A stretch of 29,010 nucleotides of DNA, taken from positions 1 through 29,010 of IMG/VR virus record IMGVR_UViG_2802429220_000002, one strand, 5' to 3'. The stretch's first letter is position 1. Every line of letters starts with the position of its first letter. The notes under the pieces are model-generated. The model was not told where the DNA came from. It worked only from the letters and a program-made list of their open reading frames with translations, and did not search any database. Positions 2,308-17,314 of the stretch are shown one piece after another. Source of the DNA: a virus (taxonomy: Duplodnaviria > Heunggongvirae > Uroviricota > Caudoviricetes). The position numbers and the translations under genes are program-made.

Positions 2308-2631
2308 GTGACTGAATTAACCAAAGAGCAATTAATCGAAGAAGCCAAATTAAAAATAGCGATTGCGAAATGCCACCCCAATTCAGGGATGGCACGGATA
2401 GAGGGCGAGTTATTCAAAATTGCACTGGCATCGCTGGTAGCAGAGCCAGCTGGTAAATTGCATGAATACAAACCAGTGGGATATCAGCGTCTGGTCGACG
2501 AGTTAACCATGCTGGTAAAGCAGTTAGCTTGGCAACTGAGGAAAGCGAAACCGGGCTGCAAATTACCGGATAAAGCGATGGACTATCTGGAGCGAAACGG
2601 ACTTATAAGCGTGGAGGATGTTTTACGATGA
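2308..2631 (+). CDS. hypothetical protein
   Basis: 107-codon ORF (GTG start) preceded by a GC hairpin (ccgccc gaaa gggcgg, 2281..2296); coding-like composition. Confidence 0.4.
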   Translation: MTELTKEQLIEEAKLKIAIAKCHPNSGMARIEGELFKIALASLVAEPAGKLHEYKPVGYQRLVDELTMLVKQLAWQLRKAKPGCKLPDKAMDYLERNGLISVEDVLR

Positions 2632-2711
2632 CCTGGCCTGAGGCGTTCACAACGGCAGGAATTGCACTGGCGGTGGCGCTGGTGGAGTATTCGATTTGCC
2701 GCTGGGGATAA
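2628..2711 (+). CDS. putative small hydrophobic peptide (27 aa)
   Basis: ATG overlaps the upstream stop (ATGA) with GGAGGA 9 nt upstream; hydrophobic product MTWPEAFTTAGIALAVALVEYSICRWG. Below the ORF-track size cut-off; speculative. Confidence 0.25.
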   Translation: MTWPEAFTTAGIALAVALVEYSICRWG

Positions 2712-2718
2712 AAACGAT

Positions 2719-2746
2719 TTGCGGGAAAAGGATAGTTAAGTAGAAT
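2719..2746 (+). promoter_or_regulatory. putative sigma70 promoter of the hok (mok/hok) mRNA
   Basis: TTGCGG, 16-nt spacer, TAGAAT. The predicted start (~2753) falls on gggtgcttgaggctg, which resembles the 5' end of plasmid R1 hok mRNA as I recall it. Confidence 0.45.
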
Positions 2747-2809
2747 TGCTGCGGGTGCTTGAGGCTGTCTGTCTCAGGCATGAACACCAAAAGGCAGATA
2801 GAGAAAAGC

Positions 2810-2874
2810 CCCAGTTAACATTACGCGTCCGGCAAGACGCTTAACATTAATCTGAGGCCATATCTATGCTCTAC
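2810..2874 (-). ncRNA. putative Sok-like antisense RNA (approximate coordinates)
   Basis: On the minus strand: TTGCCT (complement of 2904..2909), 17-nt spacer, TAACCT (complement of 2881..2886) would drive a short antisense transcript across the mok start/leader, as in hok/sok loci. Ends are not determined. Confidence 0.35.
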
Positions 2875-3078
2875 ACACGTAGGTTAGCCTCTTACGTGCC
2901 GAAAGGCAAGGAGAAGCAGGCTATGAAGCAGCAAAAGGCGATGCTAATCGCCCTGATCGTCATCTGTTTAACCGTCATAGTGACGGCACTGGTAACGAGG
3001 AAAGACCTCTGCGAGGTACGAATCCGAACCGGCCAGACGGAGGTCGCTGTCTTCACAGCTTACGAACCTGAGGAGTAA
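2866..3078 (+). CDS. hok: Hok/Gef-family type I toxin (51-aa Hok from ATG 2923; a mok-like in-frame upstream start at 2866)
   Basis: Translation MKQQKAMLIALIVICLTVIVTALVTRKDLCEVRIRTGQTEVAVFTAYEPEE has the Hok/Gef architecture (N-terminal TM helix, conserved Cys, ...AYE C-terminal region) and closely matches chromosomal HokD/RelF as I recall it. The leader resembles R1 hok mRNA. Confidence 0.9.
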   Translation: MLYTRRLASYVPKGKEKQAMKQQKAMLIALIVICLTVIVTALVTRKDLCEVRIRTGQTEVAVFTAYEPEE

Positions 3079-3148
3079 GAGACCTGGCGGGGGAGAATTC
3101 CCTCGCCACCTCTGATGTGTCAGGCTTCCTCAACGCACCCGCACTTAA

Positions 3149-3174
3149 CCCGCTTCGGCGGGTTTTGTTTTTTC
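3149..3174 (+). terminator. Rho-independent terminator after hok
   Basis: cccgc-ttcg-gcggg hairpin followed by gttttgttttttc. Confidence 0.6.
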
Positions 3175-3245
3175 TGTGCATTCTGGTTTACAATTCGCAC
3201 GCCAGCCTGAACAACTGGCACCTGCTGCGCCAGCAGAGACAACCG

Positions 3246-3524
3246 ATGGCGCATGATACCAAATTACACAATTCTGATGATTCTGCCGTCTTTGCCAGCA
3301 GGCACGGGCTGCGTTCTCACGCATTCAAATATGACTGGTATCAGCACGATCCCTGCACTGAAGAACAGGCCGAATGGCTGATTCATAACTACCGCAGACG
3401 TGGGTATGAGTTTAAGAAAGCCCTCAGTCTCGATTATCGTCACTGGATAATCTACGTCAGGCTCCCTTATTCCGAACGCCCGCCGCGTCCATCCCGCACA
3501 TTCCAGCAACGGATCTGGAGGTAA
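3246..3524 (+). CDS. hypothetical small protein (at the position rem occupies in the Qin prophage)
   Basis: ORF track 3117..3524 overlaps the hok terminator, so the start is more likely ATG 3246. Function unknown; the synteny hok - small ORF - ydfU-like matches E. coli Qin (hokD-rem-ydfU). Confidence 0.4.
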   Translation: MAHDTKLHNSDDSAVFASRHGLRSHAFKYDWYQHDPCTEEQAEWLIHNYRRRGYEFKKALSLDYRHWIIYVRLPYSERPPRPSRTFQQRIWR

Positions 3525-4587: not shown

Positions 4588-4959
4588 ATGCGTATAGAGT
4601 TTGTTTTGCCTTACCCGCCGACGGTGAACACCTACTGGCGACGTCATGGCAGCACATATTTTGTATCAAAAGCCGGTGAGCGTTATCGCCGTGATGTGGC
4701 GCTCATTGTTCGCCAGCAGCGGTTGAAATTAAACCTCTCCGGAAGGCTGGCGATAAAGATTATTGCAGAGCCACCGGATAAGCGCCGTCGTGACCTGGAC
4801 AATATCCTGAAAGCACTGCTGGATGCGCTGACACATGCGGGGCTGCTTATAGACGACGACCAGTTTGATGAAATCAATATTGTGCATGGTCTGCCTGTTT
4901 GCGGTGGGCGACTGGGTGTGAATATATTCGTAATAAGAGGATGTAATGATGTTGCGTGA
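4588..4959 (+). CDS. rusA: RusA-family Holliday junction resolvase
   Basis: N-terminal [12 protein letters not shown] and catalytic-region [16 protein letters not shown]...LIDDD match RusA signatures; ~120 aa; typical position upstream of Q. Confidence 0.85.
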
Positions 4960-5320
4960 TATTCAGCTGGTTATGGAGCGGTGGGGAGCATGGGCAGCAA
5001 ATAATCATGAAGATGTAACATGGTCCTCGATAGCTGCTGGTTTTAAAGGATTAATCCCGACTAAAGTGAAATCACGTCCTCAGTGTTCTGATGATGACGC
5101 CATGATAATTTGTGGCTGTATGGCACGATTAAACAAGAATAATCAGTATTTGCACGATTTGTTGGTGGATTATTACGTAGGTGGAATGACATTTATGGCT
5201 CTTGCACGTAAGCATAGATGTTCTGATGGGCTTATTGGTAAAAGACTTTATAAAGCTGAAGGTATTATTGAAGGAATGCTTATGGCTCTGAATGTCCGGT
5301 TAGATATGGATATGCGGTAG
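4946..5320 (+). CDS. late-gene antitermination protein Q (small Q family)
   Basis: 124 aa with a WGAWAA motif and Cys cluster, directly after rusA and before the late/lysis region, as expected for Q in lambdoid genomes. Confidence 0.65.
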
Positions 5321-5442: not shown

Positions 5443-5473
5443 CAATCATCATCATTAAATAAAAGGAGTGTTT

Positions 5474-6292
5474 ATGTGGATTGTGTTAGCACTGTCACTG
5501 TCAACTCTCAGTTGGCATAAGGTAGTGGCTTTTTCATTGTTGACGGTGTCTGTTGTCCTGGCTGTGCTTAATGATATTATTGATTGGCCGGTGTTGTTTT
5601 TTGTTGCTACAATCGTTTTTTTTATTATTTTGAAGTTCAACTGGAAATATAACGCCTGGGCTAAATCCATATATGAAGCTGGCATAGTTTTATCAGCCAT
5701 AGCATTATCTTTCCATTTATGGCCAGGGTTTCACAATCCTGTAGTGCTAAAGTCTGTCACTATCGGACCTCAAAGCACTCCCTATACAATGTATTTTAAT
5801 TTTGATAAAGCGCTGGTGCCATTTTTGTTAGTCCTGTGTACAGCTTCTTTGTTTAAAAAAGAAGTGAAATCAGAAGTGTCTTTGTGGAAATGGGGGGCTA
5901 TGTTGCTCTCTGTTCCTCTTATACTGTTTTTGGCTGTTTTTTTTGGTGGGTTAAAGCCAGAGATTCATTTCCCAGAGTGGTTGCCAGAGTTTATATTGGC
6001 TAATTTGTTTTTTGTGTCTCTGGCAGAGGAGTCATTATTTAGAGGGTATATTCAATCACGGCTATCAGAAGTGACGTCTCCATTGGTTGCGTTAATTGTG
6101 GCGTCTTTGTTGTTTGGTTTTTATCACTATTCAGGTGGTGCTTTACTTGTATTATTTGCCACGTTATCTGGTGTTGTGTATGGATTGTCATGGATGTGGA
6201 GTGGGCGCTTGTGGGTGGCAACCCTTTTCCATTTTGGTCTGAATCTGTGTCACTTGTTATTCTTTACCTATCCATTCTTAAAACATAATTGA
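5474..6292 (+). CDS. CPBP-family intramembrane metalloprotease (CAAX protease / Abi-domain protein)
   Basis: Polytopic membrane protein with the three CPBP motifs: EExxxR (LAEESLFRGY), FxxxH (FGFYHY), HxxxN (HFGLNL). The gene is visibly AT/T-rich relative to flanking phage genes. The ORF track starts at GTG 5468; ATG 5474 has better RBS spacing. Confidence 0.8.
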   Translation: MWIVLALSLSTLSWHKVVAFSLLTVSVVLAVLNDIIDWPVLFFVATIVFFIILKFNWKYNAWAKSIYEAGIVLSAIALSFHLWPGFHNPVVLKSVTIGPQSTPYTMYFNFDKALVPFLLVLCTASLFKKEVKSEVSLWKWGAMLLSVPLILFLAVFFGGLKPEIHFPEWLPEFILANLFFVSLAEESLFRGYIQSRLSEVTSPLVALIVASLLFGFYHYSGGALLVLFATLSGVVYGLSWMWSGRLWVATLFHFGLNLCHLLFFTYPFLKHN

Positions 6293-6927: not shown

Positions 6928-7477
6928 ATGGCTAATACTGTAAAAATATCCAGCTTCGAGTTAATCAACGCTGATTTCCTAGAATTTATCCAGACCTTAC
7001 CGGAAAACTCTGTCGATCTGATAGTCACAGACCCGCCATACTTTAAAGTGAAGCCCGAGGGCTGGGATAACCAGTGGAAGGGCGACGATGATTACCTGAA
7101 ATGGCTGGATCAGTGTCTGGCGCAGTTCTGGTGGGTATTAAAACCCGCCGGAAGTCTTTACCTGTTCTGTGGTCATCGCCTGGCATCTGATATCGAAATC
7201 ATGATGCGTGAGCGCTTTAATGTGCTGAACCACATTATCTGGGCGAAGCCGTCCGGGCGCTGGAACGGGTGCAACAAGGAAAGCCTGCGGGCGTATTTCC
7301 CGGCAACAGAGCGCATTCTGTTTGCGTCCGGGAGATTTGGTTGCCGACTTTTTCATGGGGTCAGGCTCCATAATAAAAGCAGCGCTGGCACTTGGGGGCA
7401 TGGCGTTAAGCGTTGAACTTGAGTCTGAACGTTTTGAGCATACTGCGGGTGAAATAGTTACGTTGGCAGATAATTAA
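6928..7477 (+). pseudogene. DNA N6-adenine/N4-cytosine methyltransferase, interrupted by a frameshift near 7330 (or a sequencing error)
   Basis: N-terminal part (6928..7416) carries the catalytic DPPY motif (LIVTDPPYF). The AdoMet-binding motif (DLVADFFMGSGSIIKAALALG) is encoded in a different frame (7334..7477). Neither frame alone gives a complete enzyme. Confidence 0.75.
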
Positions 7478-7591: not shown

Positions 7592-7667
<76 letters not shown>

Positions 7668-7670
7668 TAT

Positions 7671-7745
<75 letters not shown>

Positions 7746-16090: not shown

Positions 16091-17314
16091 ATGGCTGATG
16101 TTAAAGATGTGGAACAGGTCGCGCAGGAGTTGCAGCGGAAGTTTGACGATTTTAAGGAAAAAAACGACAAACGTATCGATGCGATCGAGCAGGAAAAGGG
16201 AAAACTTGCTGGTGAAGTGGAAACCCTCAACGGAAAACTGGCTGAACTGGAAAATCTGAAAAGCGATCTTGAAGCTGAACTGGCTGAAGTCAAGCGTCCG
16301 GCAGGCGGCACGCAAAATAAAGTTGCCGGGGAACATAAAGAAGCGTTTATCGGATTTATGCGTAAGGGGCGTGAAGATGGCCTGCGTGAGCTTGAGCGTA
16401 AGGCGATGCAGGTGGGCAATGATGAAGATGGTGGTTATGCCATTCCGGAAGAACTGGACCGCACCATTCTGACGTTGCTGAAAGATGAGGTGGTGATGCG
16501 CCAGGAAGCCACTGTGATCACCCTCGGTGGCTCGGATTATAAAAAACTGGTGAATCTGGGCGGCACAACGTCCGGATGGGTGGGGGAAACGGATGCTCGT
16601 CCGGAAACCGCCACATCAAAACTGGGTCTGATTGAACCCTTTATGGGGGAAATCTACGGCAACCCGCAGGCCACCCAGAAAATGCTCGATGACGCTTTCT
16701 TCAATGTGGAAGACTGGATCAACAGTGAGCTGGCGCTGGAATTTGCCGAACAGGAAGAAATTGCCTTTACCAGTGGCGACGGCAGCAAAAAACCAAAAGG
16801 TTTTCTGGCTTACGAGTCCACCGATGAAGATGACAAGACCCGTGCGTTTGGCAAACTTCAGCACATTGCTTCCGGTGCGGCTTCCGGCGTGACTGCCGAT
16901 GCGATCATTAAACTGATTTACACCCTGCGCAAGGCGCACCGCAGCGGCGCGAAGTTCATGATGAACAACAGCAGCCTGTTTGCCATTCGTCTGCTGAAGG
17001 ATAACGACGGAAATTATCTGTGGCGTCCGGGTATTGAGCTGGGTCAGCCTTCTTCTCTGGCAGGGTATGGCATCGTTGAGAATGAGCAGATGCCGGATAT
17101 TGCCGCCGATGCAAAAGCCATTGCGTTTGGTAACTTCAAACGCGGCTATACCATCGTTGACCGCATCGGTACCCGTATCCTGCGCGATCCGTACACCAAC
17201 AAACCGTTTGTGGGTTTTTATACCACCAAGCGAACCGGCGGTATGCTGGTGGATTCTCAGGCGATTAAGCTGATGAAAATTGGGGCTGCAACCCGCCAGA
17301 AAGCCGCTGCGTAA
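16091..17314 (+). CDS. major capsid protein (HK97 fold) with N-terminal coiled-coil scaffolding (delta) domain
   Basis: 407 aa; N-terminal ~75 residues are a charged coiled coil (KLAGEVETLNGKLAELENLKSDLEAELAEVK) followed by a capsid-like body; no separate scaffold gene is present. Confidence 0.9.
   Translation: MADVKDVEQVAQELQRKFDDFKEKNDKRIDAIEQEKGKLAGEVETLNGKLAELENLKSDLEAELAEVKRPAGGTQNKVAGEHKEAFIGFMRKGREDGLRELERKAMQVGNDEDGGYAIPEELDRTILTLLKDEVVMRQEATVITLGGSDYKKLVNLGGTTSGWVGETDARPETATSKLGLIEPFMGEIYGNPQATQKMLDDAFFNVEDWINSELALEFAEQEEIAFTSGDGSKKPKGFLAYESTDEDDKTRAFGKLQHIASGAASGVTADAIIKLIYTLRKAHRSGAKFMMNNSSLFAIRLLKDNDGNYLWRPGIELGQPSSLAGYGIVENEQMPDIAADAKAIAFGNFKRGYTIVDRIGTRILRDPYTNKPFVGFYTTKRTGGMLVDSQAIKLMKIGAATRQKAAA

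What the first reader, a model, noticed from the sequence alone, without database searches (positions are those of the whole stretch)
2719..3174. hok/sok-type type I toxin-antitoxin locus with an in-frame mok-like upstream start
A 51-aa Hok toxin (2923..3078) with an R1-hok-like leader, a candidate promoter (2719..2746), a candidate antisense Sok promoter on the minus strand (about 2881..2909) and a terminator (3149..3174). In plasmid R1, as I recall, mok overlaps hok out of frame; here the equivalent upstream ATG (2866) is exactly 57 nt upstream and in frame, so coupling may work differently or yield an N-terminally extended product.
Basis: partly seen in the sequence, partly recalled or inferred. 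Interest (0 to 1): 0.5.

Follow-up and report, generated by a model that had tools for sequence, protein, structure and literature searches.

The report
Ordinary prophage hok/mok/sok toxin-antitoxin locus

Summary
Hok (51 aa, 2923-3078) matches Pfam HOK_GEF (E 1e-23) and is 100% identical to E. coli K-12 HokD. The leader 2753-2928 matches Rfam RF01794 at 116 bits. The 5' end pairs with 3127-3141 (fold-back inhibition) just before a terminator at 3147-3174. On the minus strand there is a Sok-type RNA (2874 to 2804) with a promoter at 2881-2909.

The locus is 92-97% identical to prophage loci found in 3030 of 5426 complete E. coli genomes. It is also that close to mokW/hokW/sokW of Stx phage 933W. 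[quoted passage not shown]

The 57-nt in-frame layout is not new, however. GenBank annotates it for mokW/hokW and RefSeq for mokC/hokC.

In 156 hok loci the mok start lies 56-60 nt upstream, and all three frames occur, even among near-identical alleles. The 19 extra codons show no protein-type constraint. The frame is therefore incidental.

Verdict: already known, low interest.

The parts
2719..2746 (+). hok mRNA promoter: -35 TTGCGG (2719-2724), 16-nt spacer, -10 TAGAAT (2741-2746)
   Evidence: Read from the sequence. Conserved in 933W and E. coli 300709. Same position relative to the mRNA 5' end as in the R1-type locus. Below the threshold of the consensus scan.
2753..3172 (+). Full-length hok mRNA (about 420 nt), inferred ends
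   Evidence: The Rfam leader hit starts at 2753 and the terminator ends at about 3174. MFE -172.4 kcal/mol, z -7.3 against shuffles, with the 5' and 3' ends paired.
2753..2766 (+). 5'-terminal element GGGUGCUUGAGGCU (tac / 5' partner of fbi)
   Evidence: Pairs with 3127-3141 (-21.5 kcal/mol) and alternatively with 2885-2901 (-15.9 kcal/mol). Paired to the 3' end in the MFE structure.
2804..2874 (-). Sok antisense RNA gene (71 nt by homology to annotated sokW): 5' single-stranded tail of about 15 nt, long hairpin, U-rich 3' tail
   Evidence: The sokW misc_RNA of 933W maps to these coordinates. Fold -29.7 kcal/mol, z -5.3. Complementary to the mok SD and ATG.
2881..2909 (-). Sok promoter: -35 TTGCCT (2909 to 2904), 17-nt spacer, -10 TAACCT (2886 to 2881)
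   Evidence: Read from the sequence. Homologous to R1's TTGCGC-17-TATCCT. Mutating the sokW -10 element abolished antitoxin activity in the 933W/Sp5 homologue (PMC8621323).
2854..2868 (+). mok translation initiation region: SD GAGG (2854-2857) and ATG (2866-2868)
   Evidence: GAGG followed by a start codon is conserved in 141 of 156 surveyed hok loci.
2866..3078 (+). mok reading frame, 70 codons, in frame with hok and sharing its stop
   Evidence: The identical 70-aa product is encoded in 24 loci of the survey, counting the window itself. Same layout as mokW and mokC.
2885..2901 (+). Alternative partner of the 5' end (tac stem) inside the mok-only codons
   Evidence: duplexfold -15.9 kcal/mol. 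Not formed in the MFE structure of the 3'-truncated RNA.
2908..2913 (+). hok Shine-Dalgarno AAGGAG
   Evidence: Read from the sequence. Invariant in the alignment with 933W.
2923..3078 (+). hok toxin gene, 51 aa
   Evidence: Pfam HOK_GEF, E 1.2e-23. 100% identical to K-12 HokD. RefSeq names the homologue hokD.
3127..3141 (+). fbi (fold-back inhibition) element UCCUCAACGCACCCG
   Evidence: Pairs with mRNA nt 1-12 in the MFE structure. Present 43-57 nt after the stop codon in nearly all surveyed loci, and covaries with the 5' end between HokD/W-type and R1-type loci.
3147..3174 (+). Intrinsic terminator: 7-bp stem, GC-rich, then a T-run

Best explanation
This is an intact hokD/hokW-type hok-mok-sok type I toxin-antitoxin cassette in the early-right (nin) region of a lambdoid, phiP27-like prophage. 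It most likely works as follows.

1. A weak promoter (2719-2746) makes a stable mRNA of about 420 nt. Its 5' end (2753-2766) pairs with the fbi element (2127 nt downstream region 3127-3141), which keeps the mRNA closed to both ribosomes and Sok.
2. Slow 3' trimming removes fbi, and the 5' end re-pairs inside the leader (the tac stem). This exposes the mok start region.
3. Ribosomes that start at mok (SD 2854-2857, ATG 2866) translate through the structured hok SD region. That allows initiation at the hok ATG (2923).
4. The short-lived antisense Sok RNA (2874 to 2804, promoter 2881-2909) pairs with the mok start region. This blocks mok translation, and therefore hok translation, and marks the duplex for RNase III.
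5. When Sok disappears, on loss of the element or on prophage induction, Hok is made and damages the inner membrane.

The 57-nt in-frame relation of mok to hok is an incidental property of this allele class. Ribosomes starting at mok must simply read on to give a 70-aa Mok-Hok protein, while Hok itself comes from internal initiation.

Shown here: all sequence and RNA-structure elements and their homology. Inferred from R1 and hokW work: transcript ends, processing, coupling and toxicity.
For: - Leader: Rfam hit of 116 bits over the full model.
- Toxin: HOK_GEF E 1e-23; Hok identical to K-12 HokD.
- Homology: 92.6% nucleotide identity to 933W, where mokW (213 nt), hokW (156 nt, same stop) and sokW are annotated. 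97% identity to prophage hokD loci, with matches covering at least 80% of the query in 3030 of 5426 complete E. coli genomes.
- RNA structure: 5'/3' end pairing in the MFE structure, z -7.3. The fbi and tac complements are present, and the 5'-end/fbi pair differs in a compensatory way from R1-type loci (GGGUGC/GCACCC against GGCGC/GCGCC).
- Sok: fold of 5' tail, hairpin and U-tail, z -5.3.
- Experiment on the homologue: HokW is toxic; SokW, expressed from its own promoter, neutralises it with help from RNase III and Hfq; SokW disappears and HokW appears after mitomycin C; deleting the locus halves phage release (PMC8621323).
- Coupling rule in R1: mok has to be translated only as far as the hok start region (PMC9841398).
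- Frame survey: the mok start is 56, 57, 58, 59 or 60 nt upstream of hok across 156 loci. HokD/W-like loci split 78 in frame, 12 at 56 nt and 3 at 58 nt.
- No protein-type constraint on the 19 extra codons: variable sites 10/11/10 by codon position, and nucleotide divergence of 0.136 against 0.013 in hok.
Against: - No transcript or protein data exist for this particular copy.
- Neither promoter passes the generic sigma-70 consensus scan.
- The MFE fold of a 3'-truncated mRNA shows a 5' hairpin and not the tac stem, so the refolding step is supported only by complementarity and by analogy with R1.
- According to the introduction of bioRxiv 10.1101/2025.08.07.668861, the chromosomal loci hokA (E. 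coli C), hokB (K-12) and hokC (ECOR24) did not mediate post-segregational killing. Activity of a given copy therefore cannot be assumed.
Confidence: 0.93

Rival explanations
1. The in-frame layout is functional. The 70-aa Mok-Hok protein is itself a toxin, or a modulator comparable to the longer lambda S107 antiholin form beside the S105 holin. In this allele class Sok would then control toxin synthesis directly and not through translational coupling.
For: In frame with no intervening stop, any ribosome that starts at mok must produce the 70-aa protein. In-frame is the majority state in HokD/W-like (78 of 93) and HokC-like (7 of 9) loci. The extension is basic (MLYTRRLASYVPKGKEKQA), which would be compatible with a cytoplasmic N-terminus (inference). 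The HokW homologue contributes to phage-induced lysis.
Against: Alleles with identical Hok and near-identical leaders have mok 56 nt upstream (a 19-codon mok whose stop overlaps the hok ATG; 12 loci) or 58 nt upstream (3 loci). The fusion is therefore dispensable. The 19 extra codons vary equally at all three codon positions and about ten times faster than hok, so variation in the leader does not follow a protein-coding pattern. In R1, amino-acid changes in Mok are not expected to matter, and translation beyond the hok start is unnecessary.
Confidence: 0.12
2. The locus is a decayed, non-functional remnant, like several K-12 chromosomal hok loci. It would be recognisable by homology but no longer expressed or regulated.
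For: K-12 hokD lacks the whole leader. K-12 hokA, hokC and hokE are described as inactivated by insertion elements (PMC12214031). Both promoters here are weak matches to the consensus.
Against: Every cis element is present and uninterrupted: promoter, 5' end, Sok gene and promoter, mok SD and ATG, hok SD, intact Hok, fbi and terminator. There is no insertion element. The hok codons show mostly third-position variation among 33 alleles, which indicates purifying selection. The 92.6%-identical hokW-sokW locus is active.
Confidence: 0.05

Closest known systems
mokW/hokW/sokW of Stx2 phage 933W and Sakai prophage Sp5 (GenBank AF125520; Takada et al. 2021, PMC8621323)
   Same: 92.6% nucleotide identity over 2668-3150. 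Same 213-nt mok and 156-nt hok sharing a stop (57 nt, in frame), same Sok position, and a lambdoid prophage setting. [quoted passage not shown]
   Different: The Hok C-terminus differs (FTAYEPEE here, FVDYESEK in HokW). Mok codons 3, 5 and 6 differ (LYTRR against LNTCR), and these lie in the Sok-target region. 933W diverges after 3141 and lacks the terminator hairpin seen here.
hokD (relF) of E. coli K-12 Qin prophage
   Same: The Hok protein is 100% identical. RefSeq names the window-type gene hokD.
   Different: K-12 hokD lies 72 nt after relE and has no hok promoter, mok, sok or leader. The window carries the complete cassette.
mokC/hokC(gef)/sokC of E. coli K-12
   Same: mokC starts exactly 57 nt upstream of hokC, in frame and with a shared stop (16751-16960 against 16751-16903). 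sokC overlaps the mok start. Hok is 82% identical.
   Different: A different leader allele. The K-12 copy has IS186 immediately downstream, which is reported to disrupt fbi (PMC3562002).
hok/mok/sok (parB) of plasmid R1
   Same: Same set of elements in the same order: promoter, 5' tac/fbi partner, Sok gene and promoter inside the leader, mok SD and ATG, hok SD, Hok, fbi and terminator. Rfam family RF01794 covers both.
   Different: R1 mok starts 58 nt upstream and is out of frame, giving a 70-aa unrelated peptide. Hok is 41% identical. R1 is on a plasmid and acts in post-segregational killing.

Membership tests
[quoted passage not shown] | Small hydrophobic toxin with the Hok/Gef domain | tested here: met
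   Pfam PF01848, E 1.2e-23, 82.9 bits against a cut-off of 22. 100% identical to K-12 HokD.
[quoted passage not shown] | Conserved structured hok mRNA leader | tested here: met
   Rfam RF01794, full-length match of 116.1 bits against a gathering score of 59, on the sense strand at 2753-2928.
[quoted passage not shown] | Upstream mok frame with its own SD that reads through the hok SD region | tested here: met
   GAGG at 2854-2857 and ATG at 2866; open through to 3078. Homologous start found in 141 of 156 loci.
[quoted passage not shown] | cis-antisense Sok gene overlapping the mok start, with a 5' single-stranded tail, a hairpin and a U-tail | tested here: met
   Maps to annotated sokW. Fold z -5.3. 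Promoter homologous to R1's. This is sequence-level evidence only.
[quoted passage not shown] | fbi: pairing of the mRNA 5' end with a 3' element just upstream of the terminator | tested here: met
   MFE structure pairs nt 1-12 with 3127-3141. Duplex energy -21.5 kcal/mol, with a compensatory difference from R1-type loci.
[quoted passage not shown] | tac: alternative pairing of the 5' end within the leader after 3' processing | tested here: inconclusive
   A complement is present at 2885-2901 (-15.9 kcal/mol), but the MFE structure of the truncated RNA forms a 5' hairpin instead.
[quoted passage not shown] | Toxin activity neutralised by the antisense RNA | not testable with these tools
   Shown for the 92.6%-identical hokW-sokW locus (PMC8621323), not for this copy.
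R1-type arrangement (mok out of frame with hok) | mok start 58 nt upstream of the hok ATG, in the +1 frame, with a separate stop | tested here: not met
   57 nt here, with a shared stop. R1 is 58 nt.
mokW/mokC-type arrangement (mok in frame with hok) | mok start 57 nt upstream, same frame and same stop as hok | tested here: met
   Identical layout annotated for mokW/hokW and mokC/hokC.

The most novel reading that the evidence does not exclude
In the in-frame allele class, the obligatory 70-aa Mok-Hok read-through protein is itself membrane-active. It could be toxic, or it could be a timing modulator beside the 51-aa Hok, by analogy with dual-start phage holins. In that case Sok would control toxin output directly in these prophage loci, and the longer form would contribute to the lysis-promoting role reported for hokW.
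Probability: 0.1. Interest if true: 0.35.

Novelty: already known. Interest (0 to 1): 0.07.

Why it matters
It matters little as a discovery. The cassette, its in-frame mok and its antisense RNA have been annotated since the 933W genome record, and a near-identical copy has been characterised experimentally.

The one useful by-product is the survey. The mok-to-hok distance varies from 56 to 60 nt, all three frames occur within single Hok subtypes, and the mok-only codons show no protein-type constraint. This fits the view that mok acts through being translated and not through its peptide.

It also leaves one small untested point: in-frame alleles necessarily make an extended Hok, and its activity is unknown.

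Tried and rejected
- The generic promoter scan of 2600-3300 found neither the hok nor the Sok promoter. Its only hit was a plus-strand TTAACA-18-TATGCT at 2841-2870, at a rate no better than in shuffles (1 found against 0.5 expected). I treated that hit as chance.
- The MFE fold of a 3'-truncated mRNA (2753-3128) did not show the tac stem, so the refolding step rests on complementarity and R1 precedent only.
- A literature search for 'orf69' with 'gef', meant to find the original description of the in-frame gef leader frame, returned nothing relevant. For the claim that the in-frame layout is known, I rely on the RefSeq and GenBank annotations.
- A PDB sequence search found no solved Hok relative.
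- NCBIfam scores for the 51-aa Hok were below the curated cut-offs (48.5 against 73), so the family assignment rests on Pfam and on identity to HokD.
- I first thought R1 mok might also be in frame, because an R1-Hok-identical plasmid locus (L003) has a 57-nt in-frame mok. The R1 mutational study and the R1-identical loci (L036) corrected this: R1 itself is 58 nt and out of frame.

Full report
**Observation**

A 70-codon ORF (2866-3078) includes a 51-codon ORF that starts at ATG 2923 and ends at the same stop, so the two ATGs are 57 nt apart and in frame.

- The 51-aa product matches Pfam HOK_GEF (E 1.2e-23) and is 100% identical to E. coli K-12 HokD.
- The stretch 2753-2928 on the plus strand matches Rfam RF01794 ('sok') over the whole model at 116 bits, against a gathering score of 59 (E 4.5e-26). 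Because the match is on the mRNA-sense strand, it identifies the hok mRNA leader and not the antisense RNA.
- The proposed hok promoter is TTGCGG, 16 nt, TAGAAT (2719-2746).
- The proposed minus-strand Sok promoter is TTGCCT, 17 nt, TAACCT (2909 to 2881).
- Both promoters sit where the R1-type promoters sit. Neither reaches the threshold of the generic consensus scan.
- The terminator is confirmed: stem 3147-3164 followed by a T-run.

**What it is**

The region 2640-3200 is 97% identical to prophage loci that RefSeq annotates as hokD. Matches covering at least 80% of the query occur in 3030 of 5426 complete E. coli genomes.

It is 92.6% identical to phage 933W, whose GenBank record annotates three features:

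- mokW, 213 nt;
- hokW, 156 nt, with the same stop as mokW;
- a 71-nt SokW antisense RNA.

Transferring the sokW coordinates through the alignment places Sok at 2874 to 2804 on the minus strand. That is 6 nt downstream of the proposed -10 element.

The surrounding genes are those of a lambdoid early-right (nin) region, all on the same strand: DUF1627, Ead/Ea22, then hok, DUF968, RusA and antiterminator Q. They are followed by tRNA-Thr and tRNA-Gly and by a late region 96% identical to phage phiP27.

**RNA anatomy**

- Full-length mRNA: the inferred transcript (2753-3172) folds with z -7.3 relative to shuffles. Its first 12 nt pair with 3127-3141, immediately upstream of the terminator. This is the fold-back-inhibition arrangement of hok mRNAs.
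- 5' end pairings: by duplex calculation the 5' element GGGUGCUUGAGGCU pairs with UCCUCAACGCACCCG (-21.5 kcal/mol). It pairs alternatively with UAGCCUCUUACGUGCCG at 2885-2901 (-15.9 kcal/mol), which is the tac-type partner.
- Covariation: R1-type loci carry GGCGC with GCGCC and CGCGC at the corresponding places, a compensatory difference.
- Sok: the Sok strand folds into a 5' single-stranded tail of about 15 nt, a long hairpin and a U-rich tail (z -5.3). The tail and the 5' arm of the hairpin are complementary to the mok SD (GAGG, 2854-2857) and ATG (2866).
- Limitation: the MFE structure of a 3'-truncated RNA shows a 5' hairpin and not the tac stem. That step is therefore inferred, not shown.

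**The mok frame**

In the R1 mutational study the mok start codon is at nt 116-118 and the hok start codon at 174-176, which is 58 nt apart. Mok there is a 70-aa peptide, and stop codons in mok and hok are tallied separately (PMC9841398). R1-identical loci that I fetched give the same 58-nt, +1-frame, 70-aa Mok (L036).

The in-frame layout is not new, however:

- mokW/hokW of 933W share a stop.
- K-12 mokC (16751-16960) and hokC (16751-16903) share a stop with a 57-nt offset.
- K-12 mokB/hokB are 58 nt apart with different stops.

I surveyed 156 hok loci, taken from one genome per species and from IMG/VR viral contigs. For each I located the start codon that follows the conserved GAGG box and reads through to the hok SD.

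| Hok type | 56 nt | 57 nt (in frame) | 58 nt | 59 nt | 60 nt |
|---|---|---|---|---|---|
| HokD/W-like | 12 | 78 | 3 | 0 | 0 |
| HokC-like | 2 | 7 | 0 | 0 | 0 |
| HokB-like | 0 | 0 | 7 | 2 | 0 |
| R1-like | 0 | 6 | 23 | 0 | 1 |

In the 56-nt class, mok is only 19 codons long and its stop overlaps the hok ATG. The window's exact 70-aa Mok is encoded in 24 loci of the survey, counting the window itself.

Among 33 distinct in-frame HokD/W-type alleles:

- The 19 mok-only codons vary equally at codon positions 1, 2 and 3 (10, 11 and 10 variable sites). Their nucleotide divergence is 0.136.
- The hok codons vary mainly at third positions (5, 3 and 11 variable sites). Their nucleotide divergence is 0.013.

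The extension is therefore not constrained as a protein, and the frame relation flips freely between near-identical alleles. This agrees with the R1 result that mok needs to be translated only as far as the hok initiation region.

**Mechanism**

The best-supported account is the standard hok/sok mechanism.

1. A stable, closed full-length mRNA is made.
2. Slow 3' trimming removes the fbi element.
3. The mRNA refolds and exposes the mok start.
4. mok translation opens the hok initiation site.
5. Sok blocks the mok start and directs RNase III cleavage.
6. Hok is released when Sok decays.

Direct experiments on hokW-sokW of prophage Sp5, the locus annotated as hokW/sokW in 933W, support this (PMC8621323):

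- HokW is toxic.
- SokW expressed from its own promoter neutralises it, with contributions from RNase III and Hfq.
- After mitomycin C, SokW disappears and HokW appears in a RecA-dependent way.
- Deleting the locus delays growth arrest and halves phage release.

For the copy in this window, the sequence elements are shown here. Expression, processing, coupling and toxicity are inferred.

**Rivals**

- A functional 70-aa Mok-Hok isoform is not excluded, because the protein must be made whenever mok is translated. The free switching of frame and the lack of coding constraint make it unlikely (about 0.1).
- A decayed remnant is unlikely, because every element is intact and hok is under purifying selection (about 0.05).

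**Verdict**

Noticed in passing
window 2628-2711 (+): An unannotated 27-aa hydrophobic ORF (MTWPEAFTTAGIALAVALVEYSICRWG). Its ATG overlaps the stop of ORF 2308-2631 (ATGA), and it ends 7 nt before the hok -35 element. tblastn gave 32 hits among the fetched hok loci, in 15 amino-acid variants; 30 are without an internal stop and 2 carry a stop. It is not annotated in 933W or in E. coli 300709. It may be a real small membrane protein gene.
   Followed up: partly
window 3060-3066 (Hok Tyr47 codon TAC at 3061-3063): The Tyr47 codon lies in TTACGAA, which I recall, untested here, as resembling the tRNA-Arg2 anticodon-loop motif recognised by TadA. hokD mRNA is reported to undergo low-level A-to-I editing that recodes this conserved position to Cys (PMC12214031). 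The same site is present here.
   Followed up: partly
L064 and L082, about 95 nt upstream of hok (compare L006, K-12 relE-hokD): A Klebsiella michiganensis plasmid contig (L064) carries an R1-like Hok, and a Lelliottia contig (L082) carries a truncated R1-like ORF. Both have nearly the same leaderless upstream sequence as the K-12 relE-hokD junction. relBE-hok therefore seems to be a recurring module with different Hok types, not a one-off truncation in K-12.
   Followed up: no
L001 (933W) against window 3142-3200: 933W diverges from the window immediately after the fbi element and lacks the terminator hairpin found at window 3147-3164. The 3' end of hokW mRNA must therefore be formed differently.
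   Followed up: no
window 5468-6292 (+) and 6928-7416 (+): A 274-aa ORF starts about 150 nt downstream of the Q antiterminator gene (4946-5320). Its C-terminal region has an Rce1-like/CAAX protease domain (E 8e-20). Further downstream a 162-aa ORF matches only the first half of the DNA methylase domain (N6_N4_Mtase) and may be a fragment. These precede tRNA-Thr(tgt) at 7592-7667 and tRNA-Gly(tcc) at 7671-7745.
   Followed up: no
L003 (plasmid pMTY1886_IncFII) 344-559: A plasmid locus whose Hok is 100% identical to R1 Hok has a leader variant (ATGTCTGACAACATC...) one nucleotide shorter than R1's. Its mok is therefore in frame (57 nt), unlike R1's. The frame flips even among R1-type plasmid alleles.
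   Followed up: yes
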